In this document: positions 795 to 11,858 of the stretch, piece after piece
How positions within the stretch are numbered: position 1 is the first letter of the stretch
Layout of the letters: each line of letters opens with the position of its first letter
Assembly (NCBI GenBank): GCA_043228905.1
Contig: JBHGNT010001121.1
Location: 1 to 11,858, forward strand
DNA from: Azolla caroliniana
Taxonomy: Eukaryota; Plantae; Polypodiophyta
Reading direction: 5' to 3'
Length of the DNA: 11,858 bases
Notes under the pieces: generated by a model
Databases searched by the model: none
The model's input: only the letters and a program-made list of their open reading frames with translations
Told to the model about the DNA's origin: nothing
Translations under genes and position numbers: made by a program

Positions 795-845
795 TGTTGG
801 GAAATCGGTCTCTCCGGATGGGATCTGGTGATGAATAAAGAGGAA

Positions 846-904
846 CCGGTGAGAACCGGAAGAGATCCGGAAACTGGAGGAGACCCGGTGAGAACCGGAA
901 GAGA
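846..904 (+). repeat. 20-bp direct repeat CCGGTGAGAACCGGAAGAGA x2 in copia U3 (846-865, 885-904)
   Basis: Exact repeat with a 39-bp period; degenerate in the 3' LTR. Confidence 0.85.
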
Positions 905-958
905 AGACAGATTTGAAATATGTCTTGAATAAGCCCACTGAGGCTATATTTGTAAATA

Positions 959-995
959 GCCCTAAGTTCATATAACTATAAATATGACTTAGGGC
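959..995 (+). promoter_or_regulatory. Copia LTR TATA box (TATAAATA, 977-984) inside a 14-bp inverted repeat
   Basis: GCCCTAAGTTCATAT-aactataa-ATATGACTTAGGGC; the same structure is at 5362-5398 in the 3' LTR. Confidence 0.65.
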
Positions 996-1048
996 AATCA
1001 CTTTGTGTGTGCGATTGTGTTGTTGTCATATTGTTGTAACTGTTGTAT

Positions 1049-1071
1049 AGAGAGAGAGGGAGAGAGAGAGA
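1049..1071 (+). repeat. (GA)n microsatellite in copia LTR (second copy 5452-5472)
   Basis: AG dinucleotide run seen in both LTRs, with a 2-nt length difference. Confidence 0.9.
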
Positions 1072-1343
1072 TACAGAGCGATACTCTGTTGTAACCGCCA
1101 TTGTGCAAAGAAACAGAGCTCGAGTTCGTTGCCTCTGAGTCTTCGATTGTACCCCTTTCTCTTCATTGTGATAGTTCGGAGTTTGTGGGCTCTCGTGGTT
1201 TTTCCCTATTACGATTTTCCACGTAAACATCCTGTGTTATTTTTTTGTGTACTCTCCACTTCCCATTTCTGTGTTTGATTCTTAAACAAGTGATTTACTA
1301 CTTGGTTGTGGCCGAACGATATTCCGCGCATTTCTTTTCAATA

Positions 1344-1354
1344 TGGTATCAGAG
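1344..1354 (+). other. Copia primer-binding site complementary to tRNA-iMet 3' end
   Basis: TGGTATCAGAG, 3 nt after the 5' LTR end; the standard plant iMet PBS. Confidence 0.95.
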
Positions 1355-1369
1355 TGAACAACACAAAAA

Positions 1370-4300
1370 ATGGAAGAATCTTACGGCGGCATGTTCAAGC
1401 TCACCGGCTCCAACTACTTAGTGTGGAAGTCGAAGATGAGGGACATGCTGGTGGTTAAAGATCTTTGGTTGCCGGTTCAGTTCGGGGACAAGAGACTGGA
1501 TAAGATCGACGCCACGGTGTGGGAGGTGATGCACATGAAGATGACGACATACATCCGGTGCTTCATCGACATGAGCCTGTACAACAACTTCAATGAAGAG
1601 TGCAAGGCTCATGAACTCTGGGAGAAGATCGACATCATGTTCCAGAACAAGAAAGTCGTTAATTGGGTTTCGGTATTTCGGAAGCTAGTGAGGCTCCACT
1701 ACCAAGACGACTCCAGTATGGCGGAGCACATGAATGCCTTCCAGGGGCTGATACACCAAGCAACCTCGTTGGAAGTACCTCTCACCGATGAGGTACTTGG
1801 CTCTACTCCTGCTCGGTTCCCTCCCGGATAGCTGGGAGACGTTAGTTGTTAAGGGGGAGGCCCACTTGCTTCTATTGTGGCAAGCCGGGGCACTTCAAGA
1901 AGAACTGTCGACATTTCCGGAAAGACAAGGGAACCGACAGTACCGATTCGAAGAAGTCACCAGACCGAAACGGTTCGGATCGGCAAGACCCGGATCGGAA
2001 GGGAACGACGGTGATCGCGTCAAGTGAAGAAGAACTAATGCTCATTAATGAGGAGAGTGAGTTGAACCTTGTTGTCAACAAAACAACGTGGGCTGTCGAT
2101 TCCGAAGCGTCGTTCCACCTTACCCCGGACCGGAAATGCTTCTCATCCTACACAGCCGGTGAGCACAACTATGTCCGGATGGGGAATGAAGGGACATGCC
2201 GAATTATCGACATAGGAGATGTGCTGCTGACGACATCAATCGGATGCAAGTTGTTGTTGAAGGATGTCCAACACGTTCCGGAGGTTCGATATCAGCCGAT
2301 CAGCTAGATGATGAAGACTACACAGGTAGCATCTGGAATAATGGCTCGAGCCCGGAAGGTCAACACACTGTACTTAATGCATGCCGGGATATGCCGGGAT
2401 GAAGTGAACGTAGCATCTAACACTGTCGGTGAGCTATGGCACAAAAGACTCTGTCACATGAGTGAGAAGGGGATGAAGAGGCTTGCCGAAGACAACCTCA
2501 TTCTAGTGAAGGACGTGCAACTTGAGAAGTGCATCGACTGCCTGGATGGCAAGCAAAACCGAACCTCCTTCCGGTCAAGACCACCGATGAGACGGAATGC
2601 ACCACTGGAGCTGGTGCATACCGATGTGTGTCAAGTAGACACGAAGTCACATGCTAGATCGCAGTACTTCGTGACGTTTATAGATGACCACATCTGGAAG
2701 CTGTGGGTCTCACCGTTGACGACAAAGGATCAAGTGTTATCCATCTTCAAGGAGCTCCATGCGAGAATGGAAAGAGAAACCAACCGGAAGCTAAAAGCGG
2801 TTCAAGCAAATAACGGAGGAGAATACCGAGGGCAGTTCGAGGAGTACTGCCGGTCGAAGGGAATCCAACTCGAATTCACTGTGCTGAAGACGCCGGAACT
2901 AAACGGGTTGGCCGAAAGGATGAACCGGACCATAATGGAGAGAGTTCGGACCATGCTCGCACATGCCAAGTTACCCAAGACGTTTTGGGTTGAGGTGATG
3001 ACAATGACGACCTATGTGATAAACAGATCACCCTTAGTACCCTTGGGCAGAGACTCACCGCAGAAAGTATGAACCGGTAAGGATGTGTCTTACTGGCATC
3101 TGAAGGTGTTCGGGTGTCTCACATACGTGCATGTGGCGAAGGACAAGAGAGCAAAGTTGGATCCGAAGTCCCGGCCATCCATATTCCTTGGATACGGCGA
3201 TGATAAGTTTGGTTACCGGGTGTGGGATCTGATCGACAGAAAGGTGTTCCGGAGTCTGGACATATTCTTCATGGAAGACATGACCATTGCCGACTGGGAG
3301 TCAGAGAAGAAGGTAATGAACTCCAGATCATCCATTGAGAACCGGCCTGAGGACAAAAGGATATACCCGATTGAAAACCGGATGTTAGCCAATAACCGGA
3401 TGACACTCGACGAACCGGCCCGATACGGACAGGAAACCGAACCGACCGAAGAAGAAGACACCTGAAAGGACAAGATCCCGAATCAGATTCGGATTTGGAA
3501 CAAAAAGAGGAACCGGTAGTCAAAAACCAAGGACGGAGATATCCTCTCTGGGAGAGAAGAGCCCCTCGAAGATTTCCAAATGCAGAGCATGTGTTGCTAA
3601 CCGATGAGAGGGAGCCGAAAAGCTTTGAAGAAGCAAGGGGAGACACCCACAATCGTAAGTGGTTGAGTGCCATGCAAGATGAGATGGATTCCTTACATGA
3701 GACCCACACATATGAATTAGTGGAGTTGCTGAAAGGAAAGAGGGCACTCCGGAACAAGTGGGTGTACAAGCTGAAACTGGGAGACACCGGAAATCCACCA
3801 AGGTATAAGGCCCGAATCGTGGTGAAGGGCTTCCACCAAAAGGAAGGAGTGGACTTCGATGAGATCTTTGCCCCGGTAGTAAAGATGACATCCATCCGGA
3901 CGGTCTTGGGCATAGCGGCAAGCATGGACCTCGAGGTAGAGCAACTGGATGTCAAGACGGAATTCCTACAAGGAGACCTCGAAGAAGAGATCTACATGCA
4001 TCAACCAGAAGGATTTGAGAAGAAAGGGAAGGAGCACCTGGTGTGCTGGCTGAAGAAGAGCTTATACGGACTGAAGCAAGCTCCCTGACAATGGTACCGG
4101 AAGTTTGACTCCTTCATGACTGATCAAGGGTACCACAAGACGTAGGCTGATCACTGCGTGTTTGTGAAGAAATTTGATGAAGGAGATTTCCTGATATTGC
4201 TTCTGTACGTGGACGACATGTTGATTGTCGGACAAGACCAAGTCAAGATATGGATGTTGAAGAAGGCCCTTAACTGGACCTTCTCAATGAAAGACTTGGG

Positions 4301-5183
4301 TCCGGCAAGACAGATACTGGGGATGCACATCATTCGGGACCGGTCGAAGAAGCAATTGTGGTTGTCACAGGAAAAGTATGTGACAAAGGTGCTTCAACGG
4401 TTTAACATGTTAGAAGCAAAACCGATCGGATCGACACTCCCGACAAACTGCAGATTATCCGGTAAGCAAAGACCGAAGACAAAAGCAAAGAAGGCGGATA
4501 TGACGAAAATTCCATATGCCTATGCGGTCGAGAGCTTGATGTACGAAATGGTGTGTACTCAACCGGATATTGGATACGCAATCGGAGTGGTGAGTCGGTT
4601 CATGACCAACCCCGGAAAAGAGCACTGGAATGCGGTAAAATGGATACTCTGGTACTTGAAGGGCACTTCGAGTATGTGCCTCCGATTCGGCTCCGGTAAA
4701 CCCCTCGTGGAAGGATTTACCGATTCGGATATGTCGGCGGATGTGGACACTAGCCGGTCAACTTCCGGATATGTCATGACCTATGCAGGGGGAGTCGTTT
4801 CGTGGTAGTCGAGGTTGCAGAAGACGGTTGCATTGTCAACCACGGAGGCGGAGTACATGGCAACCGTGGAAGCTGGCAAGGAAATATTATGGATGAAGGA
4901 CTTCATCGGAGACCTAGGGATCCGACAAGAGGAATATTGGCTCTACTGCGACCGTCAAAGTGCCATCCACCTTGCAAAGAACGCGACATACCATTCCAGA
5001 ACGAAGCACATCCAACGCAAATACCATTGGATCCGGGAGCGAGTTGAAGATCGAGAGTTCGTACTAACGAAGATCCACACGGAGGAGAACGGGTCGGATA
5101 TGCTAACCAAGGGGCTGACAACCGACAAGCTAGACGCATGTCGGAAACGGATTGGACTTACAAGACATCCCATACCGGAGTGA
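1370..5183 (+). pseudogene. Copia gag-pol polyprotein, disrupted
   Basis: Gag (LLGSLPDSW), knuckle CFYCGKPGHFKKNC (1867-1908), protease WAVDSEASFH, pre-integrase LWHKRLCHMSEKG, integrase LVHTDV/FIDD/NGLAERMNR, RT YKARIVVKGF/LLYVDDML, RNase H FTDSD/STTEAEY/KHI. Stops at 3070, 4086, 4143, 4806; frameshifts near 1800, 1850, 2290, 2340, 3470. Confidence 0.96.
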
Positions 5184-5192
5184 AGGGGGAGA
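5182..5192 (+). other. Copia polypurine tract
   Basis: GAAGGGGGAGA just before the 3' LTR, overlapping the pol stop codon. Confidence 0.92.
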
Positions 5193-5193
5193 T

Positions 5194-5740
5194 TGTTGGG
5201 AAATTGGTCTCTTCGGATGGGATCCAGTGATGAATAAAGAAAGAGGACCCGAAGAGAACCAGAAGAGATCCGAAAACTGAAGGAGTCTTGGGAGAACCGG
5301 AAGAGAAGACAGATTTGTAAATATGTCTTGAATAAGCCCATTGAGGCTATATTTGTAAATAGCCCTAAGTTCGTATAACTATAAATATGACTTAGGGCAA
5401 TCACTTTGTGTGTGCGATTGTGTTGTTGTCATATTGTTGTAACTGTTGTATAGAGAGAGAGAGAGAGAGAGATACATAGCGATACTCTGTTGTAACCGCC
5501 ATTGGCGAAGAAACAGAGCTCGAGGTCGTTGCCTCTGAGTCTCTGATTGTACCCCTTTCTCTTCATCGTGATAGTTCGGAGTCTGTGGACTCCCGTGGTT
5601 TTTCCCTATTCGGGTTTTCCACGTAAACATCTTGTGTTATTTTCTTGTGTACTCTCCACTTCCCATTTCTATGTTTGATTCTTAAACAAGTGATTTACTA
5701 CTCGGTTGTGGCCGAACGGTATTCTGCGCATTTCTTTTCA
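5194..5740 (+). repeat. Copia 3' LTR (547 bp)
   Basis: TGTTGGGAAA...TTTCTTTTCA; direct repeat of 795-1340. Confidence 0.96.
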
Positions 5741-6313: not shown

Positions 6314-7699
6314 TTAACACCTTTGGTAAGAACTTGCTCTTTATGAGCAAGTATATTCATGAATGTACTAACTACTTGTTTAAGAGCTGCATAAGGATTT
6401 GTGTGTACTACATCCCCTCCACCAATATTAGGGTTTTGTTTTCTAGCTCCACGAGAACGAAGTCATTGATTTAATTGAGGTCGTACCACCCTTCCTGAAG
6501 AATCGAATTGTAATTGGTTGGACAATCTCTGATTTCGCACTTGTTTCTGCCAAGGATTTTTCTTAAACCCCTCCTTCAATCTCAAATTATCTTTTGGTAA
6601 TGTCGTACCATAAGTATTTTTGTTTCCCTTTGTATAACAACACCCTTCCCTTTTATCTTATGGTCCACTTGATGCCACTCTCCATCTTCAACATTTGGGC
6701 CATCATTATTACATACTCCATTCTCCTCCCCAACACCTCTAACATGACCATGAACTTTAGGATCTCGCTCTAACCCATGAGATGTTCCCTCATCCATGAC
6801 CATATCAACCATTGAGACAATATCCTTCTCAACATCTTCCTTATTTTTCCCTTTGACATTATTTTCTAGGGATAGTTCACCATGATATTGGCATTCAGCC
6901 ATAAAATGCCCCAATTTACCACATTTAAAACAATGTCCTGCAAAAGTTTCCCATTGAAGCTTAAAACGAAATCGACCAAATCGAGATGTATCGATACTCG
7001 ACCATCCTGGAAGTTTACAGCTTGTATCCCATAACGTGCAAAATCTACATTTGTTCAACGAATTAACATGAGGTGCAACCAAAACTTTACCAATTTGGGA
7101 CATCAATCCCGATAGTAAATCCCAAAAGAATAAGTTACTACAATCAACGGTCACCCAAATTGGACATTGTTGTTTTAATAAATCTTTATAATCCACCACC
7201 GGAACCCATTCCATCACATGCACTAATCTTCTATAAAAAAATATTGGTACCTTTGCCATCAAAGTCGTACGGTGTTCTAACGATCGAAAAACTACATCAT
7301 AGAAACCTCTTAGACCCACATACACATCCTCAACACAATTAGGCATTATGAATGAATTCAACCAATGCTTAATCCATGATACCAAAGGAAGTTTGCTAGT
7401 GAAATACAAAATAACACCATGATCATAGAACCTGGCAAAAGTTGCTAACATAGAGTTGGTCTCCATCACCACCTCGACAACATCTTCCTCCACACAATCT
7501 TTAGCATCTTTCTCATTTTTTTCCATAAAATTGGAAAGCAAAGCCTTAACAAAATCACAACGATTGTCAATATCATAATCATCTCCAATAACATCTTTCC
7601 CACCAATAATATCAGCATATGATGTTCTCTCATTTTTTGTAGAATCAATACACTTTTGCCTCTTGTAATTTTCATAACCATCATCACTACCACATCCAT
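6310..7699 (-). pseudogene. LINE ORF1 (plant L1-type, DUF4283-like region plus CCHC zinc knuckle); N-terminus removed by the gypsy insertion
   Basis: SYADII motif, GFYDVVF...VMEWVP...PIWV block and CFKCGKLGHFMAEC (6932-6891). After a frameshift near 6600-6655 a second frame runs to TGA 6312-6310 with one internal stop (6465-6463). Confidence 0.85.
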
Positions 7700-7708
7700 T
7701 GTCATGAT

Positions 7709-7775
7709 ATGGCAAGACTCGAACCCATGACCTTATACTACATGGGTCGAGCTCTTACCATTAGACTATGAATTG
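7709..7775 (-). promoter_or_regulatory. tRNA-derived Pol III type-2 promoter-like unit (A box 7768-7758, B box 7725-7715); not a functional tRNA
   Basis: Minus strand TAGTCTAATGGTAAGA...AGGTCATGGGTTCGAGTC, with tRNA-like spacing from U8 to G53-T54-T55-C56-G57-A58-C61; the acceptor stem does not pair. Confidence 0.68.
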
Positions 7776-7828
7776 TAATTTGTAAGATATTATTTTCATT
7801 TATATTTTATCATAGAAAATTGATGTAT

Positions 7829-7878
7829 ATTCCAGATCTCTCTGGAACATTCTAGAAGCTTCGGGATTATTCCTAAAA
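7829..7878. promoter_or_regulatory. Heat-shock element array (alternating nGAAn/nTTCn), perfect 4-unit core at 7844-7863
   Basis: TTCcaGATctCTCtgGAAcaTTCtaGAAgcTTCggGATtaTTCctAAA: 10 units in 5-bp phase, 6 perfect and 4 with one mismatch, directly upstream of TATA. Confidence 0.8.
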
Positions 7879-7882
7879 ACAC

Positions 7883-7889
7883 TATAAAA
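7883..7889 (+). promoter_or_regulatory. Gypsy LTR TATA box
   Basis: cTATAAAAgg, 33 nt upstream of the predicted transcript start at about 7916. Confidence 0.75.
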
Positions 7890-8125
7890 GGAGGCACAAG
7901 GCATTGTTTTGAACCAAATTGGTTCAACACCAATCTTAAGCCTCTTAGCCAATTTGTACTTATCTTTCATATAATATAAGAGTTGTTGTCATCATCCTAA
8001 CTCTCCCTCTCCTCTTCTCACTTCCTCTCTCTCGGGAATCTTACGCAGTCACGTCCTCTTAGTACTAATAGTACTGCTCTTCTTAGTACTAATTCCATCT
8101 CTGCTTTAGTACTATTCCTGACAAT

Positions 8126-8137
8126 TTGAACCAATTT
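8126..8137 (+). other. Self-priming primer-binding site
   Basis: TTGAACCAATTT is the exact reverse complement of AAATTGGTTCAA (7916-7927); no TGG-type tRNA PBS follows the LTR. Confidence 0.82.
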
Positions 8138-8196
8138 TCTCTTTCCTCCAGCCTACTTGTCGTTCTCCCTCATCCTCCTACCCTTTTCCCTCTACT

Positions 8197-9354
8197 ATGG
8201 CTATTGTTAGCGCCCAAGAATATCAATCCGTTTTCTCTGAGTTACAGTGCCTAAAAGAAAAGTTTGTTGCCCTGGAACAAGAAAACCAACGGCTGATAGG
8301 GGATCTGCAACAAATCGCTCTAGAAAAGCAACAAACGCAGCAACAACATGGGGAGTTAGCGTTACGGGTGCAACAACTTGAAGCGGCATTGCAACAATAA
8401 GGATCAAGTCCCCAAGGATTTCATAAAGAGCCGAAGATTGGACTTCCTGTGAAATTTGATGGAACGCGATCGCAATTCAGGGGATTCCTTAATCAGGTAC
8501 GATTAGTCTTCCAAATGCATCCTTCCCGATACCCCACTGATGCATCCCGAGTCGGCTTAATAGGCACGTTGCTTAGCGGCTCAACCTTAGCATGGTTCGC
8601 TCCACTTCTAGAAAAACAATCGCCCTTGCTTAATAACTTTGAAGATTTTATTAGTGAGTTCAAAGCCTGCTTTGGAGACACCGACAGCATCAGGACGGCA
8701 ATCAACAAGATCCGGGGATTGCGTCAAGGCGATCGTCCAGCCTCTGCCTACGCGGCGGATTTCCGCCTACTCGCTTCCGACATACCCTGGGATGATCAAG
8801 CACTAATGGAGTAGTTTCGCTATGGCCTGCAAAATGATGTCAAAGATCTACTTCTAACCTTCCCCGAAGAACCAAAGTCTCTTACGGAGGCAATCAGTCG
8901 ACCAGTCCGATGTGACAACTGCCTTTTCGAATGGCGTTCGGAACGTCAATTACAGATACCACGCGCTAGGCCGGAGCCCACTTACGCTGCAGTCGCGGCT
9001 AGACCGTTTGCACGAGACATACCTCAAGCAAATACTTCGACACCGATGGAGATCGATACCATGCGTCGACGCGGCCCGTTATCGGAAGAAGAAAAGCAAC
9101 GACGACGTGCAAATCGATTATGTCTTTATTGCGGTGGACCAGGGCATATCGCAATCAATTGTCCCCATAGGCCAAGAAGACAGGTAAATCAAATTGTAGC
9201 TTGTACTAAACCCGAGTCAATTCTTCCCTTAGGAGTGTCTGATGGTATTAATAGTACTAATAGAGTGTTTGATAGTATTCATAGTACTAATAGCCCAAGT
9301 ATCTCAAATAAATTTGAAATCCTTAGTCAATTAGATGAAGAGTTAAACGATTGA
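8197..9354 (+). pseudogene. Gypsy gag (N-terminal coiled coil, capsid, CCHC nucleocapsid)
   Basis: One continuous frame joining track ORFs 8197, 8449 and 9046, with stops at 8398 (TAA) and 8812 (TAG). Motifs KFDGTRSQFRGF, LRQGDRPASAYAADF, TPMEID, CLYCGGPGHIAINC. Confidence 0.92.
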
Positions 9355-9396
9355 GTCCAGCCAAAATAGGAGCCGTTTGGTTGGACAGCAGCCCTA
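9342..9396 (+). other. Programmed -1 ribosomal frameshift signal between gag and pol
   Basis: G_TTA_AAC in gag phase, 6-nt spacer, 11-bp stem (9355-9365 / 9376-9386), possible second stem; pol is in the -1 frame and has no upstream ATG. Confidence 0.78.
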
Positions 9397-11858
9397 GATC
9401 TGTACAGCCCATTAGTGGTTCCATTCCTTCCAAGCAAGTTAGCAATGTGTTCCTAGCCCAAGTCATTGTTAGTACTAAAAGTACTCCCCCAGTACCCGTC
9501 CTAGCACTTTTAGATTCCGGAGCTAATTCCTGTTTCATGGATTGAAATTTTGCCCAAGCTTCTCAGATATCCTTAAGAAAACTTCCTTGTCCCGCATCTG
9601 TAGTAGTCATTGATGGTCGTCCCATTGCTTCCGGGAATATTGTAGAAGAATCAGAACCCATTCAAGTTGTCCTAGGTAGTTTTGTGTGTGTAATATCATT
9701 TAATATAATTAGTAGTCCAGAGCATCCCATTGTCCTAGGATTACCTTGGTTTGAATTACATAATCCAGCCATAGATTGGAGAACAAGAGAAGTCCGACAT
9801 TGACCACCCCAAGAATTAACTCACCAAGTTTCGACCATTTCACTCCATCAACTACGCGAAGAAGGACCCAAGGAGGCCATGTTCCTATTTGCAATATCAG
9901 TACATCCTTCCAGCACTATTAAGAAGGACTCCTCAGTACAACTTCCAGCAAAATATCATCCTTATGCCGATGTATTTGACAAGGTAAAAGCCGGTACCCT
10001 TCCTCATCACCGTCCCTATGACTGTCCCATCGATTTACAACCAGGAACCAAGCCACCATGGGGACCAATTTACAACTTGTCACCCACCGAGTTAGAAGTC
10101 CTTCGAGCCTACATAGAGGAGAACTTGGCAAGCGGGTTCATTCGCCATTCGAAATCTCCGGCCGGTGCACCCATCTTCTTTGTGAAGAAGAAAGATGGCT
10201 CACTTCGTCTTGTCGTTGATTACGGCGGATTGAATAAAGTCACCATCCGGAATAGGTATGCACTTCCTCTTATATCAAGTCTTTTAGAGCGAGTTAATGG
10301 TGCCAAGTTTTTTACTAAAATCGACCTACGAGGAGCGTATAACCTCGTGCGGATCCGACCGGGAGATGAGTGGAAGACCGCTTTTCGCACGCGGTATGGT
10401 CCTTTAGAGTATACTGTTATGCCGTTTGGCCTAACCAATGCACCTGCAGTCTTCCAACACATGGCAAATGATATATTCAGAGATCTCTTGGATATCTGTT
10501 TGATCATTTATCTGGATGATCTATTGATTTATTCGAAGACCCAGGAAGAGCACGATTCTCATGTACTATTAGTACTAAAGCAACTCCGCGAGAATGGTCT
10601 TTATGCCAAGCTAGAAAAATGTAGCTTTGACTGCAAGCAAGTGGAATTTCTAGGCTACGTCATCTCCTTAGAGAGCATCGCCATGGATCCAGCTAAAATC
10701 CAAACTGTACTAGAGTGGCAAATTCCACGGTCGGTACGAGATGTACAATGTTTTCTAGGTTTTGCTAACTTCTACCGTAAGTTTATACAGGATTACTCGA
10801 AGATTATTTTACCTCTCACACAACTTACGAAGAAGGGCCAAGCATTTCTTTGGTCCATAGAAGCAAATATGGCTTTTCAGCATCTTAAGAAAGCCTTTAC
10901 ATCAGCACCGATTCTAGCTCATGTGGATACAAGCAAACCATTCATCATGGAGGCCAACGCATCAGATTTCGCCCTCGGTAGCATCCTTTCTCAACAAGGC
11001 GATAAAGAAGAGTTGCATCCGGTGGCTTTCCATTCACGCAAATTCGATGTCGCAGAAATCAACTACGAAATACATGACAAGGAGTTATTAGCCATCGTGG
11101 ATTCATTTGTACAATGGCGGCATTTCTTAGAGGGCTCTCCACATCAGGTCATTGTCTTTAGCGATCATAAAAATCTTGCTTATTTTCAGAACGCTCGCGT
11201 ACTAAATCGACGGCAAGCTCGGTGGGCGCAATTCCTCACGCGTTTCGACTTCAAAATCACATATCGATCAGGGAAGCAGCAAGGAAAAGCAGATGCACTA
11301 TCACGGCGTTCATATCTTGCACCTCGTCCTGGTGACACAACATTTGATAATCAAAAGCAAGTAATCTTGGGACCAACACGATTGCACACAACGCAGATTT
11401 TTCACACCTCGATGGATTCACGGATTACCGATGACATACGTGCAACCTTGAAGACGGATAGTTTTGCTCAAGACATCCTGGCGCACATTGATACTTCTCG
11501 GGCATCCTGTTCTCGGTCTCAACAACCAGGTATTGACTACCGACAATTCGAATATCATGATGGTTTGTTATTCTTCAAAAAGCGCGTATATGTCCCCGAT
11601 TGCTCTTGTCGCCTTCAAATCGTCCAACATTGTCACGACACCCATACGGCGGGACATTTCGGTAGTACTAAGACGTTGGAGCTAGTGCAACGATCTTTTT
11701 GGTGGCCCCACATGCGCCGTTTTGTCGACGACTAAGTTCGGACCTGTGATGCTTGCTGCCGAGCAAAGATGCCACGACACCATCCATATGGCTTGTTGGA
11801 ACCCTTACCGATTCCAAGTAAGCCGTGGCAGTCTATTTGTCTTGATTTTATCACAGAT
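9345..11858 (+). pseudogene. Gypsy pol (protease, RT, RNase H, start of integrase)
   Basis: Single frame: ALLDSGA, KIDLRGAY, MPFGLTNAPAVFQ, IYLDDLLI, EANASDFALG (catalytic D appears mutated to N), SDHKNL, ADALSR, HDTHTAGH...CDAC, GLLEPLPIP...LDFITD. Stops at 9543, 9801, 11733. Confidence 0.96.

What the first reader, a model, noticed from the sequence alone, without database searches (positions are those of the whole stretch)
7700..8137. One 424-bp gypsy LTR combines a tRNA-derived Pol III unit, a heat-shock array and tRNA-free self-priming
Seen: from the LTR 5' end, an antisense A/B-box unit (7709-7775), an HSE array (7829-7878), TATA (7883), a self-primer hairpin (7906-7930), U5 palindromes (8060-8114) and a self-complementary PBS (8126). 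Known: each part has a separate precedent (HSEs in the copia ONSEN, self-priming in Tf1, Pol III-gene-derived LTR sequence in Cassandra-type TRIMs). Inference: an element that no longer uses tRNA as primer but keeps a tRNA-type promoter back to back with a heat-inducible Pol II promoter. I do not know this combination from a gag/pol-coding plant element, but cannot check novelty.
Basis: partly seen in the sequence, partly recalled or inferred. Interest (0 to 1): 0.8.

Follow-up and report, generated by a model that had tools for sequence, protein, structure and literature searches.

The report
Fern chromovirus LTR with tRNA-derived edge
The end repeat of an abundant protein-coding jumping gene, likely from a fern, has the self-priming site usual for its group and a predicted heat-shock promoter, but it also carries at its outer edge a conserved, outward-facing piece of a tRNA gene that likely recruits the tRNA-transcribing machinery and would shield the element's promoter from silencing.

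Summary
7700-8123 is the 424-bp 5' LTR of a high-copy Tcn1-like chromovirus inserted in a LINE, probably in a fern. All listed modules are real and shared by relatives. Self-priming is well supported: four different primer/PBS 12-mers stay complementary, 31-34 nt below TATA. It is ordinary, though: 83% of 1,500 REXdb Tcn1 elements self-prime, and the self-priming Tf1/Tf2 are heat-induced. The heat-shock array beats all 60 shuffles and recurs in a relative with 54% pol identity. The unusual part is an antisense, tRNA-derived A/B-box unit at the outer edge of U3. It is present in 10 of 11 family LTRs that appear to reach their left end and spaced as in tRNA, but it folds as a rod hairpin, not a cloverleaf. 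It faces away from the element, so it cannot make the genomic RNA as Helenus/Cassandra promoters are thought to. It looks like a later gain, not something 'kept' from tRNA priming. Best guess (0.45): a TFIIIC/Pol III boundary with outward transcripts; rival: a structural hairpin beside the polypurine tract. A covarying U3/R hairpin may lock the 3' copy of the primer. No expression data. New variant of a known kind.

The parts
7700..8123 (+). 5' LTR (424 bp, TGTCA...TGACA) of a Tcn1-like chromovirus; the 3' LTR lies beyond the window
7710..7775 (-). tRNA-derived unit, antisense to the element, at the outer edge of U3; cloverleaf lost
   Evidence: independent tRNA profile hit 7770-7710, E 0.004; stem pairing counts
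7715..7725 (-). B box (T-loop equivalent)
   Evidence: no listed variant in 7700-7736 (40 of 50 rows shown)
7758..7768 (-). A box; changes in relatives fall mostly on degenerate positions, but position 10 is A in 4 of 10 LTRs
7709..7761 (.). predicted rod hairpin (about 19 bp) with a variable loop at 7735-7741
7776..7828 (.). AT-rich spacer between the two back-to-back units; would be the upstream region of the Pol III unit
7829..7878 (+). heat-shock-element array, ten nGAAn/nTTCn units in register, perfect core 7844-7863
   Evidence: a 30-bp duplication in L009 keeps the register
7883..7889 (+). TATA box
   Evidence: 54 of 56 positions identical in 8 relatives
7908..7915 (+). U3-side arm that pairs with the primer (predicted lock on the 3' LTR copy of the primer)
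   Evidence: 13-bp version with unrelated sequence in L158
7916..7927 (+). self-primer at the predicted transcription start (33 nt below TATA)
8060..8114 (+). U5 AGTACT palindromes, copy number variable, role unknown
8126..8137 (+). primer-binding site, exact complement of 7916-7927
8197..9354 (+). gag, broken by in-frame stops at 8398 and 8812
9330..11858 (+). pol (protease, RT, RNase H, start of integrase), broken by stops at 9801 and 11733 and cut by the window end
   Evidence: chromodomain seen in relative L001
5753..7699 (-). host L1-like LINE (ORF1 with zinc knuckle) interrupted by the gypsy insertion at 7699/7700

Best explanation
This is the 5' LTR of a high-copy Tcn1-like chromovirus whose predicted heat-inducible Pol II promoter would start at a 12-nt self-primer complementary to the element's own primer-binding site, and whose outer edge carries a family-wide, outward-facing tRNA-derived A/B-box unit that likely recruits TFIIIC/Pol III and would act as a chromatin boundary for that promoter. 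Shown from sequence and relatives: boundaries, tRNA ancestry, orientation, conservation, primer/PBS covariation, HSE periodicity, aromatic-cage chromodomain. Inferred: (1) HSF binds the array and Pol II starts near 7916, so the RNA's first 12 nt fold onto the PBS and become the primer as in Tf1; (2) the U3-side arm exists only in the RNA's 3' LTR copy and folds over that copy of the primer, leaving the 5' copy free; (3) the tRNA unit was captured after self-priming was in place, lost its cloverleaf and refolded as a SINE-like rod; (4) because class I chromodomains are thought to steer insertion into heterochromatin, a tDNA-type barrier between host chromatin and the HSE/TATA promoter would keep new copies inducible; (5) by-products would be outward transcripts from the 5' LTR and antisense transcripts over the PPT and chromodomain from the 3' LTR.
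For: Ancestry: 85 of 123 viral-contig matches to the 15-mer 7718-7732 lie inside ARAGORN tRNAs, all 85 in the sense of the LTR minus strand. A profile from 254 tRNAs lacking that 15-mer, run on 149 kb, ranks this unit in the window and 7 relatives as its top 8 hits (best E 5e-5). A-to-B spacing is 43-44 nt in 10 of 10 LTRs; 97 of 114 scored tRNAs have 43-45. A-box positions outside the rod keep the box degeneracy (8 T, 9 purine, 11 pyrimidine, 14 A, 15 purine in 10 of 10) while positions 5-7 and 12 vary; contigs of four runs show the same kinds of change. Departures from Watson-Crick pairs in the rod are G-U rather than A-C on the tRNA-sense strand, 12 to 3 (8 to 3 without the inner two pairs), a weak hint that this strand is the folded RNA. 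Position is the outermost U3. Aromatic cage Y/W/Y in L001 and L008; MAGGY chromodomain binds H3K9me2/3 (PMC3350952 passages); yeast tDNA barriers need intact A and B boxes (PMC7990762 passages). Self-priming: 12/12 pairs in 10 of 12 LTR-PBS sets, four distinct 12-mers, always 2 nt after the LTR end, 31-34 nt below TATA in the 10 where TATA is held. U3/R hairpin of 5 bp or more in 9 of 11 testable sets.
Against: Both boxes meet the strict consensus in only 3 of 10 LTRs (A 6 of 10, B 6 of 10); G10 is A in 4 of 10. A-box identity to the window (81%) is no higher than the AT spacer (83%), while the rod stem between the boxes is 91-94%, so structure alone may explain most conservation; a small upstream hairpin could also account for part of the A box (L009 and L010). 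The invariant-looking CAA sits at tRNA positions 1-3, not at -7 to -3 where plant tRNA genes have it (PMC3082873); only 2 of 10 have it there, and TATA-like words in so AT-rich a stretch are not diagnostic. L012 (gag 81% identical) has HSE, TATA and primer but no unit; it is a single low-coverage copy and may be truncated. All three double-sided changes in the rod come from one lineage, L015, across an alignment gap. tDNA barriers were documented here for yeasts only, not plants. The window copy itself is dead.
Confidence: 0.45

Rival explanations
1. The unit is kept as a structural hairpin. It sits just behind the polypurine tract in the genomic RNA (or in minus-strand DNA) and helps PPT selection, plus-strand start or end formation; its tRNA ancestry is incidental and the boxes are no longer used.
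For: Stem 91-94% conserved, loop 55%; 96% of cells paired, 2 of 500 shuffles reach it (relatedness caveat); L015 builds the outer stem from different sequence; the rod also folds on the plus strand, z -2.6 to -4.5 in 9 of 10; U3 5'-end stem-loops near the PPT are described for Sire and HIV (PMC3601003 passage).
Against: A-box positions outside the rod keep box degeneracy and the 43-44 spacing is fixed; wobble asymmetry and folding energy lean to the antisense strand.
Confidence: 0.3
2. Neutral relic: a SINE head or tRNA retrocopy landed in the LTR of a successful master element and has hitch-hiked since.
For: SINE insertion into an LTR is the proposed origin of Cassandra, Helenus and Ajax (PMC10886601); cloverleaf decayed (anticodon stem 16 of 50, acceptor 30 of 70 cells paired); L012 lacks it.
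Against: Retained across families with gag 74-94% identical; the unit is 55% conserved in its loop and above 90% in stem and B box, against 58% for R/U5; no listed variant of 8% or more in 7700-7736 or 7742-7763 across 8,353 contigs laid (10 of 50 rows hidden).
Confidence: 0.15
3. One reading: the tRNA unit is a leftover tied to the loss of tRNA priming, or supplies a primer or the genomic RNA.
For: On the plus strand the unit reads in the same orientation as a PBS-type copy of a tRNA 3' end, so capture during reverse transcription is conceivable (inference).
Against: Self-priming is clade-wide and seen in L158; the PBS matches the R start, not the unit; the unit points away from the element; 0 of 63 distant loci carry it.
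Confidence: 0.05

Closest known systems
Tcn1 clade of chromoviruses (Neumann et al. 2019, PMC6317226: passages and supplement 5 read; Novikova et al. 2010, PMC2864245: passages)
   Same: Non-seed-plant host (inferred), chromodomain with aromatic cage, gag and pol in overlapping frames, about 5.7 kb, self-priming PBS, kinship with fungal and vertebrate chromoviruses.
   Different: No tRNA-like LTR unit, HSE array or U3/R primer hairpin appears in the passages read; described hosts were moss and club-moss, and Novikova found no primer site in SM-Tcn1.
Tf1/Tf2 of Schizosaccharomyces pombe (PMC5341516 and PMC7175516, passages; primary priming papers not held, mechanism details recalled)
   Same: Primer comes from the RNA's own 5' end; heat raises transcription and, in Tf2, shifts the start to the priming-competent site.
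   Different: No tRNA-derived unit in the passages read; heat response there is tied to nucleosome remodelling, with no HSE array described.
Helenus / Ajax / Cassandra, 'TRIMp3' (Kojima 2024, PMC10886601: parts 1-5 of 6 read, supplement passages for three families)
   Same: tRNA-derived, non-functional-tRNA sequence in the LTR with conserved A and B boxes; probable origin by SINE insertion.
   Different: Those are non-coding, under 1.3 kb and tRNA-primed; in the families seen the unit is in sense orientation and is proposed to make the genomic RNA. Here the element codes gag/pol, self-primes, has TATA/HSE, and the unit is antisense at the LTR edge. Kojima argues autonomous elements need Pol II, and also notes that 'not a few' Repbase LTRs resemble tRNA without analysing the long ones.
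ONSEN/ATCOPIA78 (PMC5056178, passages)
   Same: HSE in the LTR, predicted HSF-driven induction.
   Different: ONSEN is a copia element; HSF binding is shown for it and only predicted here.
tDNA / TFIIIC chromatin barriers of yeasts (PMC7990762, passages)
   Same: A- and B-box unit positioned between silent chromatin and a Pol II promoter (predicted).
   Different: Host loci in yeast, not carried by a mobile element; not shown for plants in what I read.

Membership tests
Tcn1 chromoviruses | PR-RT-RH-IN order with C-terminal chromodomain | tested here: met
   Relative L001 (94% RT-RH identity): all domains and PF00385; the window is cut inside integrase
Tcn1 chromoviruses | Aromatic cage in the chromodomain | tested here: met
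   Y, W, Y present in L001 and L008
Tcn1 chromoviruses | Self-priming PBS (10 bp or more, 0-5 nt behind the LTR) | tested here: met
   12 bp, 2 nt behind the LTR
Tcn1 chromoviruses | gag and pol in overlapping frames; size 5.5-9.4 kb | tested here: met
   L001 frames 181-1473 and 1449-5057; about 5.7 kb inferred; range
Tcn1 chromoviruses | RT-RH-IN groups with REXdb Tcn1 references | tested here: inconclusive
   FastTree of 91 RT-RH rows nests it among fungal and vertebrate chromovirus proteins, away from two angiosperm proteins, with weak deep support and no named Tcn1 reference
Tcn1 chromoviruses | 5-bp target-site duplication | not testable with these tools
   3' end outside the window; no genome held
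Helenus / TRIMp3 | tRNA-like sequence with A and B boxes in the LTR | tested here: met
Helenus / TRIMp3 | Short, non-coding, non-autonomous | tested here: not met
   gag/pol present
Helenus / TRIMp3 | Unit oriented to transcribe the element; tRNA-complementary PBS | tested here: not met
   Antisense and outward; PBS matches the R start; sense orientation seen in Helenus LTRs
Functional tRNA gene | Cloverleaf with paired acceptor and anticodon stems | tested here: not met
Pol III type 2 promoter | A and B boxes at consensus and tRNA spacing | tested here: inconclusive
   Spacing 10 of 10; strict boxes both met in 3 of 10
Pol III type 2 promoter | Plant upstream TATA (about -35) and CAA (-7 to -3) | tested here: inconclusive
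   CAA at the canonical place in 2 of 10; AT-rich block conserved
Pol III type 2 promoter | TFIIIC/Pol III occupancy and transcript | not testable with these tools
   Needs ChIP or stranded raw reads
HSE-driven LTR (ONSEN-like) | Three or more alternating nGAAn units upstream of TATA | tested here: met
   GAA-TTC-GAA core perfect in 9 of 10 rows, L012 has its own run
HSE-driven LTR (ONSEN-like) | HSF binding and heat induction | not testable with these tools
   Needs heat-shock RNA or binding data

The most novel reading that the evidence does not exclude
An autonomous, heterochromatin-seeking chromovirus lineage carries its own tDNA-type Pol III/TFIIIC barrier at the outer edge of each LTR, back to back with an HSF-driven Pol II promoter, so every new insertion arrives insulated, heat-inducible and producing antisense rod RNA over its PPT; and self-priming chromoviruses in general use a U3/R hairpin to lock the 3' copy of their primer.
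Probability: 0.3. Interest if true: 0.8.

Novelty: new variant of a known kind. Interest (0 to 1): 0.5.

Why it matters
If the unit works, a protein-coding LTR retrotransposon has domesticated a Pol III promoter for something other than making its own genome, which the TRIMp3 model does not foresee. It would suggest how an element that targets silent chromatin stays inducible, and it would scatter very many Pol III sites and heat-shock promoters through fern genomes, giving a direct test of tDNA-type barriers in plants. The U3/R hairpin offers a simple, testable answer to how self-priming elements keep the second copy of the primer from competing. If the unit is only structural or a relic, this is an ordinary Tcn1 LTR with a curious fossil.

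Tried and rejected
No genome is held for this window, so the 3' LTR and TSD of this copy could not be recovered. No RNA holder listed; run X20, guessed RNA, was judged probably DNA. ARAGORN and three Rfam scans found no tRNA; best hits were chance miRNA-type hairpins. Gag search of genome contigs found nothing; an alignment search of viral contigs added no locus. Cluster look-up gave no host names; the Atlas gave no taxa for the two nearest gag clusters and could not take the LINE protein. A gag DNA tree could not place L012 inside or outside the unit-bearing families (support 28-63 at the key nodes). Looked for a free SINE with the same head: a profile of the unit over 89 sequences (414 kb) hit only the 10 LTRs it was built from, and no such loose ends were among the listed rows (most rows hidden). 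T-run avoidance on the antisense strand was not consistent (first TTTT after 113, 591 and 959 nt in three 3' LTRs, 221 nt in the window). A recalled claim of very many tRNA-like genes in fern genomes was not found in PMC6786969 passages or supplement search and is not used. Three Tf1 papers were not held. The att-left identity (57%) is an alignment artefact of variable 5-bp units and is not used. The dual-tRNA, PPT-less gypsy families noted elsewhere in this genome are a different thing: this family has a PPT. No structure or complex prediction was run.

Full report
Setting. The window holds an L1-like LINE on the minus strand interrupted by a complete copia element (about 795-5740) and, from 7700 to the end, by a gypsy element. 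The only named relatives of the LINE ORF1 among 18 hits are two proteins of the fern Adiantum nelumboides, so the host is probably a fern (inference). No genome is held, so I used contigs of public runs and 25 metagenome loci found with gag. Many of those loci are collapsed assemblies of high-copy families, and some are single low-coverage copies.

LTR boundaries. The LTR runs from TGTCA at 7700 to TGACA at 8123. Summed contig depth in X1 goes from 3,445 at 7647-7675 to 1,332,468 at 7705-7733. Loose ends before 7700 are mixed and end in a polypurine tract; those after 8123 are mixed. Loci L001, L006 and L008 show pol end, PPT, then the same LTR start. The tRNA-like unit is therefore inside both LTRs of family members.

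Element identity. L001 (94% RT-RH identity) has gag and pol in overlapping frames with protease, RT, RNase H, integrase, Tf2-type SH3 and chromodomain, and the chromodomain has the three cage residues. A tree of 91 RT-RH rows (those aligning over 330 aa or more; P0048-P0120 left out except named ones) nests it among fungal and vertebrate chromovirus proteins, apart from two angiosperm proteins; deep support is weak and no named Tcn1 reference was available. These features match Tcn1: self-priming 83% of 1,500 elements, overlapping frames 60%, chromodomain 100%, 5.5-9.4 kb (PMC6317226 supplement 5; passages). The window copy is dead, with stops at 8398, 8812, 9801 and 11733.

Self-priming. 8126-8137 is the exact complement of 7916-7927; no match arose in 20,000 shuffled LTRs. 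Of 12 LTR-PBS sets, 10 pair 12/12 (two with one G-U) and two low-coverage copies pair 10/12 and 11/12. Four distinct 12-mers occur, including unrelated ones in L011 and in L158 (54% pol identity), always 2 nt behind the LTR and 31-34 nt below TATA in the 10 sets where TATA is held. This is real covariation and puts the predicted start at the primer. It is also the clade's normal state.

U3/R hairpin. The arm at 7908-7915 pairs with the primer. A stem of 5 bp or more covers the primer in 9 of 11 testable sets (weak in L009 and L015), and L158 has a 13-bp version from different sequence. If transcription starts at the primer, the arm exists only in the RNA's 3' LTR copy, where it would hide the second primer copy (inference). 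I did not see this in the passages read, but the primary Tf1 papers were not held.

HSE array. Ten pentamers are in register at 7829-7878; score 26/30 against 19 elsewhere in the window and at most 22 in 60 shuffles. Core positions are 90% identical in 8 relatives and n positions 81%. L009 has a 30-bp duplication that keeps the register; L012 and L158 have their own arrays. Tf1 transcription is heat-induced and Tf2 shifts to its priming-competent start under heat (PMC7175516, PMC5341516 passages), and ONSEN has an HSF-bound HSE (PMC5056178 passage). Heat response plus self-priming thus has precedent.

tRNA-derived unit. Read on the minus strand, the A box starts at 7768 and the B box at 7725. 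A strict A+B pattern (recalled consensus) appears once in 1,500 shuffled windows. This test leans on the B box by construction. A profile of 254 tRNAs without the 15-mer ranks the unit in the window and 7 relatives as its top 8 hits in 149 kb. Ten of 11 family LTRs that appear to reach their left end have it, with 43-44 nt spacing; L012 does not. It was not found in 63 more distant gypsy loci, of which 30 have a PPT-like tract followed by testable sequence; L158 lacks its left end. It is not a tRNA: anticodon stem 16 of 50 and acceptor 30 of 70 cells pair. It folds as a rod, z -1.2 to -6.4 on the tRNA-sense strand, with 96% of cells paired; the three double-sided changes all come from L015.

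Promoter or hairpin? For a promoter: the A-box positions outside the rod keep box degeneracy in 10 of 10, spacing is fixed, none of the 40 listed variants (of 50) in 8,353 contigs falls in 7700-7736 or 7742-7763, and wobble changes lean to the tRNA-sense strand, 12 to 3 or 8 to 3. Against: both strict boxes in only 3 of 10, G10 is A in 4 of 10, canonical upstream CAA in 2 of 10, A-box identity 81% against 83% for the spacer and 91-94% for the stem, and L012 lacks the unit. There is no terminator inside the LTR; a transcript would run 221 nt into the host LINE here, or 113-959 nt antisense into pol from a 3' LTR.

Mechanism. The unit points away from the element and cannot make genomic RNA, unlike the sense-oriented units in the Helenus LTRs seen. 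Its place is between host chromatin and the HSE/TATA promoter. Class I chromodomains are proposed to target heterochromatin (PMC3350952 passages), and yeast tDNAs block silencing through their A and B boxes (PMC7990762 passages). I commit to a TFIIIC/Pol III boundary with outward transcripts at 0.45, against a PPT-adjacent structural hairpin (0.3; precedent in PMC3601003 passage), a neutral relic (0.15) and a link to priming (0.05).

Novelty. Ten literature searches listed no paper whose title or abstract start describes a tRNA-derived unit in the LTR of an autonomous chromovirus. Kojima 2024 (parts 1-5 of 6 read) says 'not a few' Repbase LTRs resemble tRNA but analysed only TRIMs, so unreported cases may exist; Repbase and REXdb sequences (supplements 1 and 3 of PMC6317226, too large) could not be examined. 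Earlier scan notes had nothing on this sequence. Verdict: observation confirmed, interpretation partly supported, new variant of a known kind, interest 0.5.

Noticed in passing
window 795-5740: Complete but decayed copia element with tRNA-Met-type PBS (TGGTATCAGAG, assignment recalled) and PPT, nested in the same LINE; flanks share GTAT, so the TSD is 4 bp or 5 bp with one mismatch.
   Followed up: partly
window 8061-11664; L001, L008, L012: AGTACT occurs 10 times in the gypsy part against 1.2 expected, in U5, the gag end, the protease start and RT, at similar places in relatives; absent from U5 of L009, L011 and L158. Could be dimerisation, packaging or frameshift signals.
   Followed up: partly
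window 7700-7714 and LTR starts of L002, L007-L010, L015: The LTR left end is built of 5-bp units (TGTCA, TGATA, TGGCA and the like) whose number differs between families.
   Followed up: no
L015:308-406: The most tRNA-like A box, a B box looped out of the rod and followed by TTTT, and an outer stem of different sequence; may be closest to the captured ancestor.
   Followed up: partly
L158:1-300: Distant relative filed in a cyanobacterial MAG, with HSE, TATA, self-primer and a 13-bp U3/R hairpin; many gypsy contigs sit as contaminants in prokaryotic MAGs.
   Followed up: partly
L012:300-990: Family member inserted in a copia RT region whose LTR has a long HSE run but no tRNA unit.
   Followed up: partly
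window 9233-9293: 30-bp tandem duplication near the gag end, variable among relatives.
   Followed up: no
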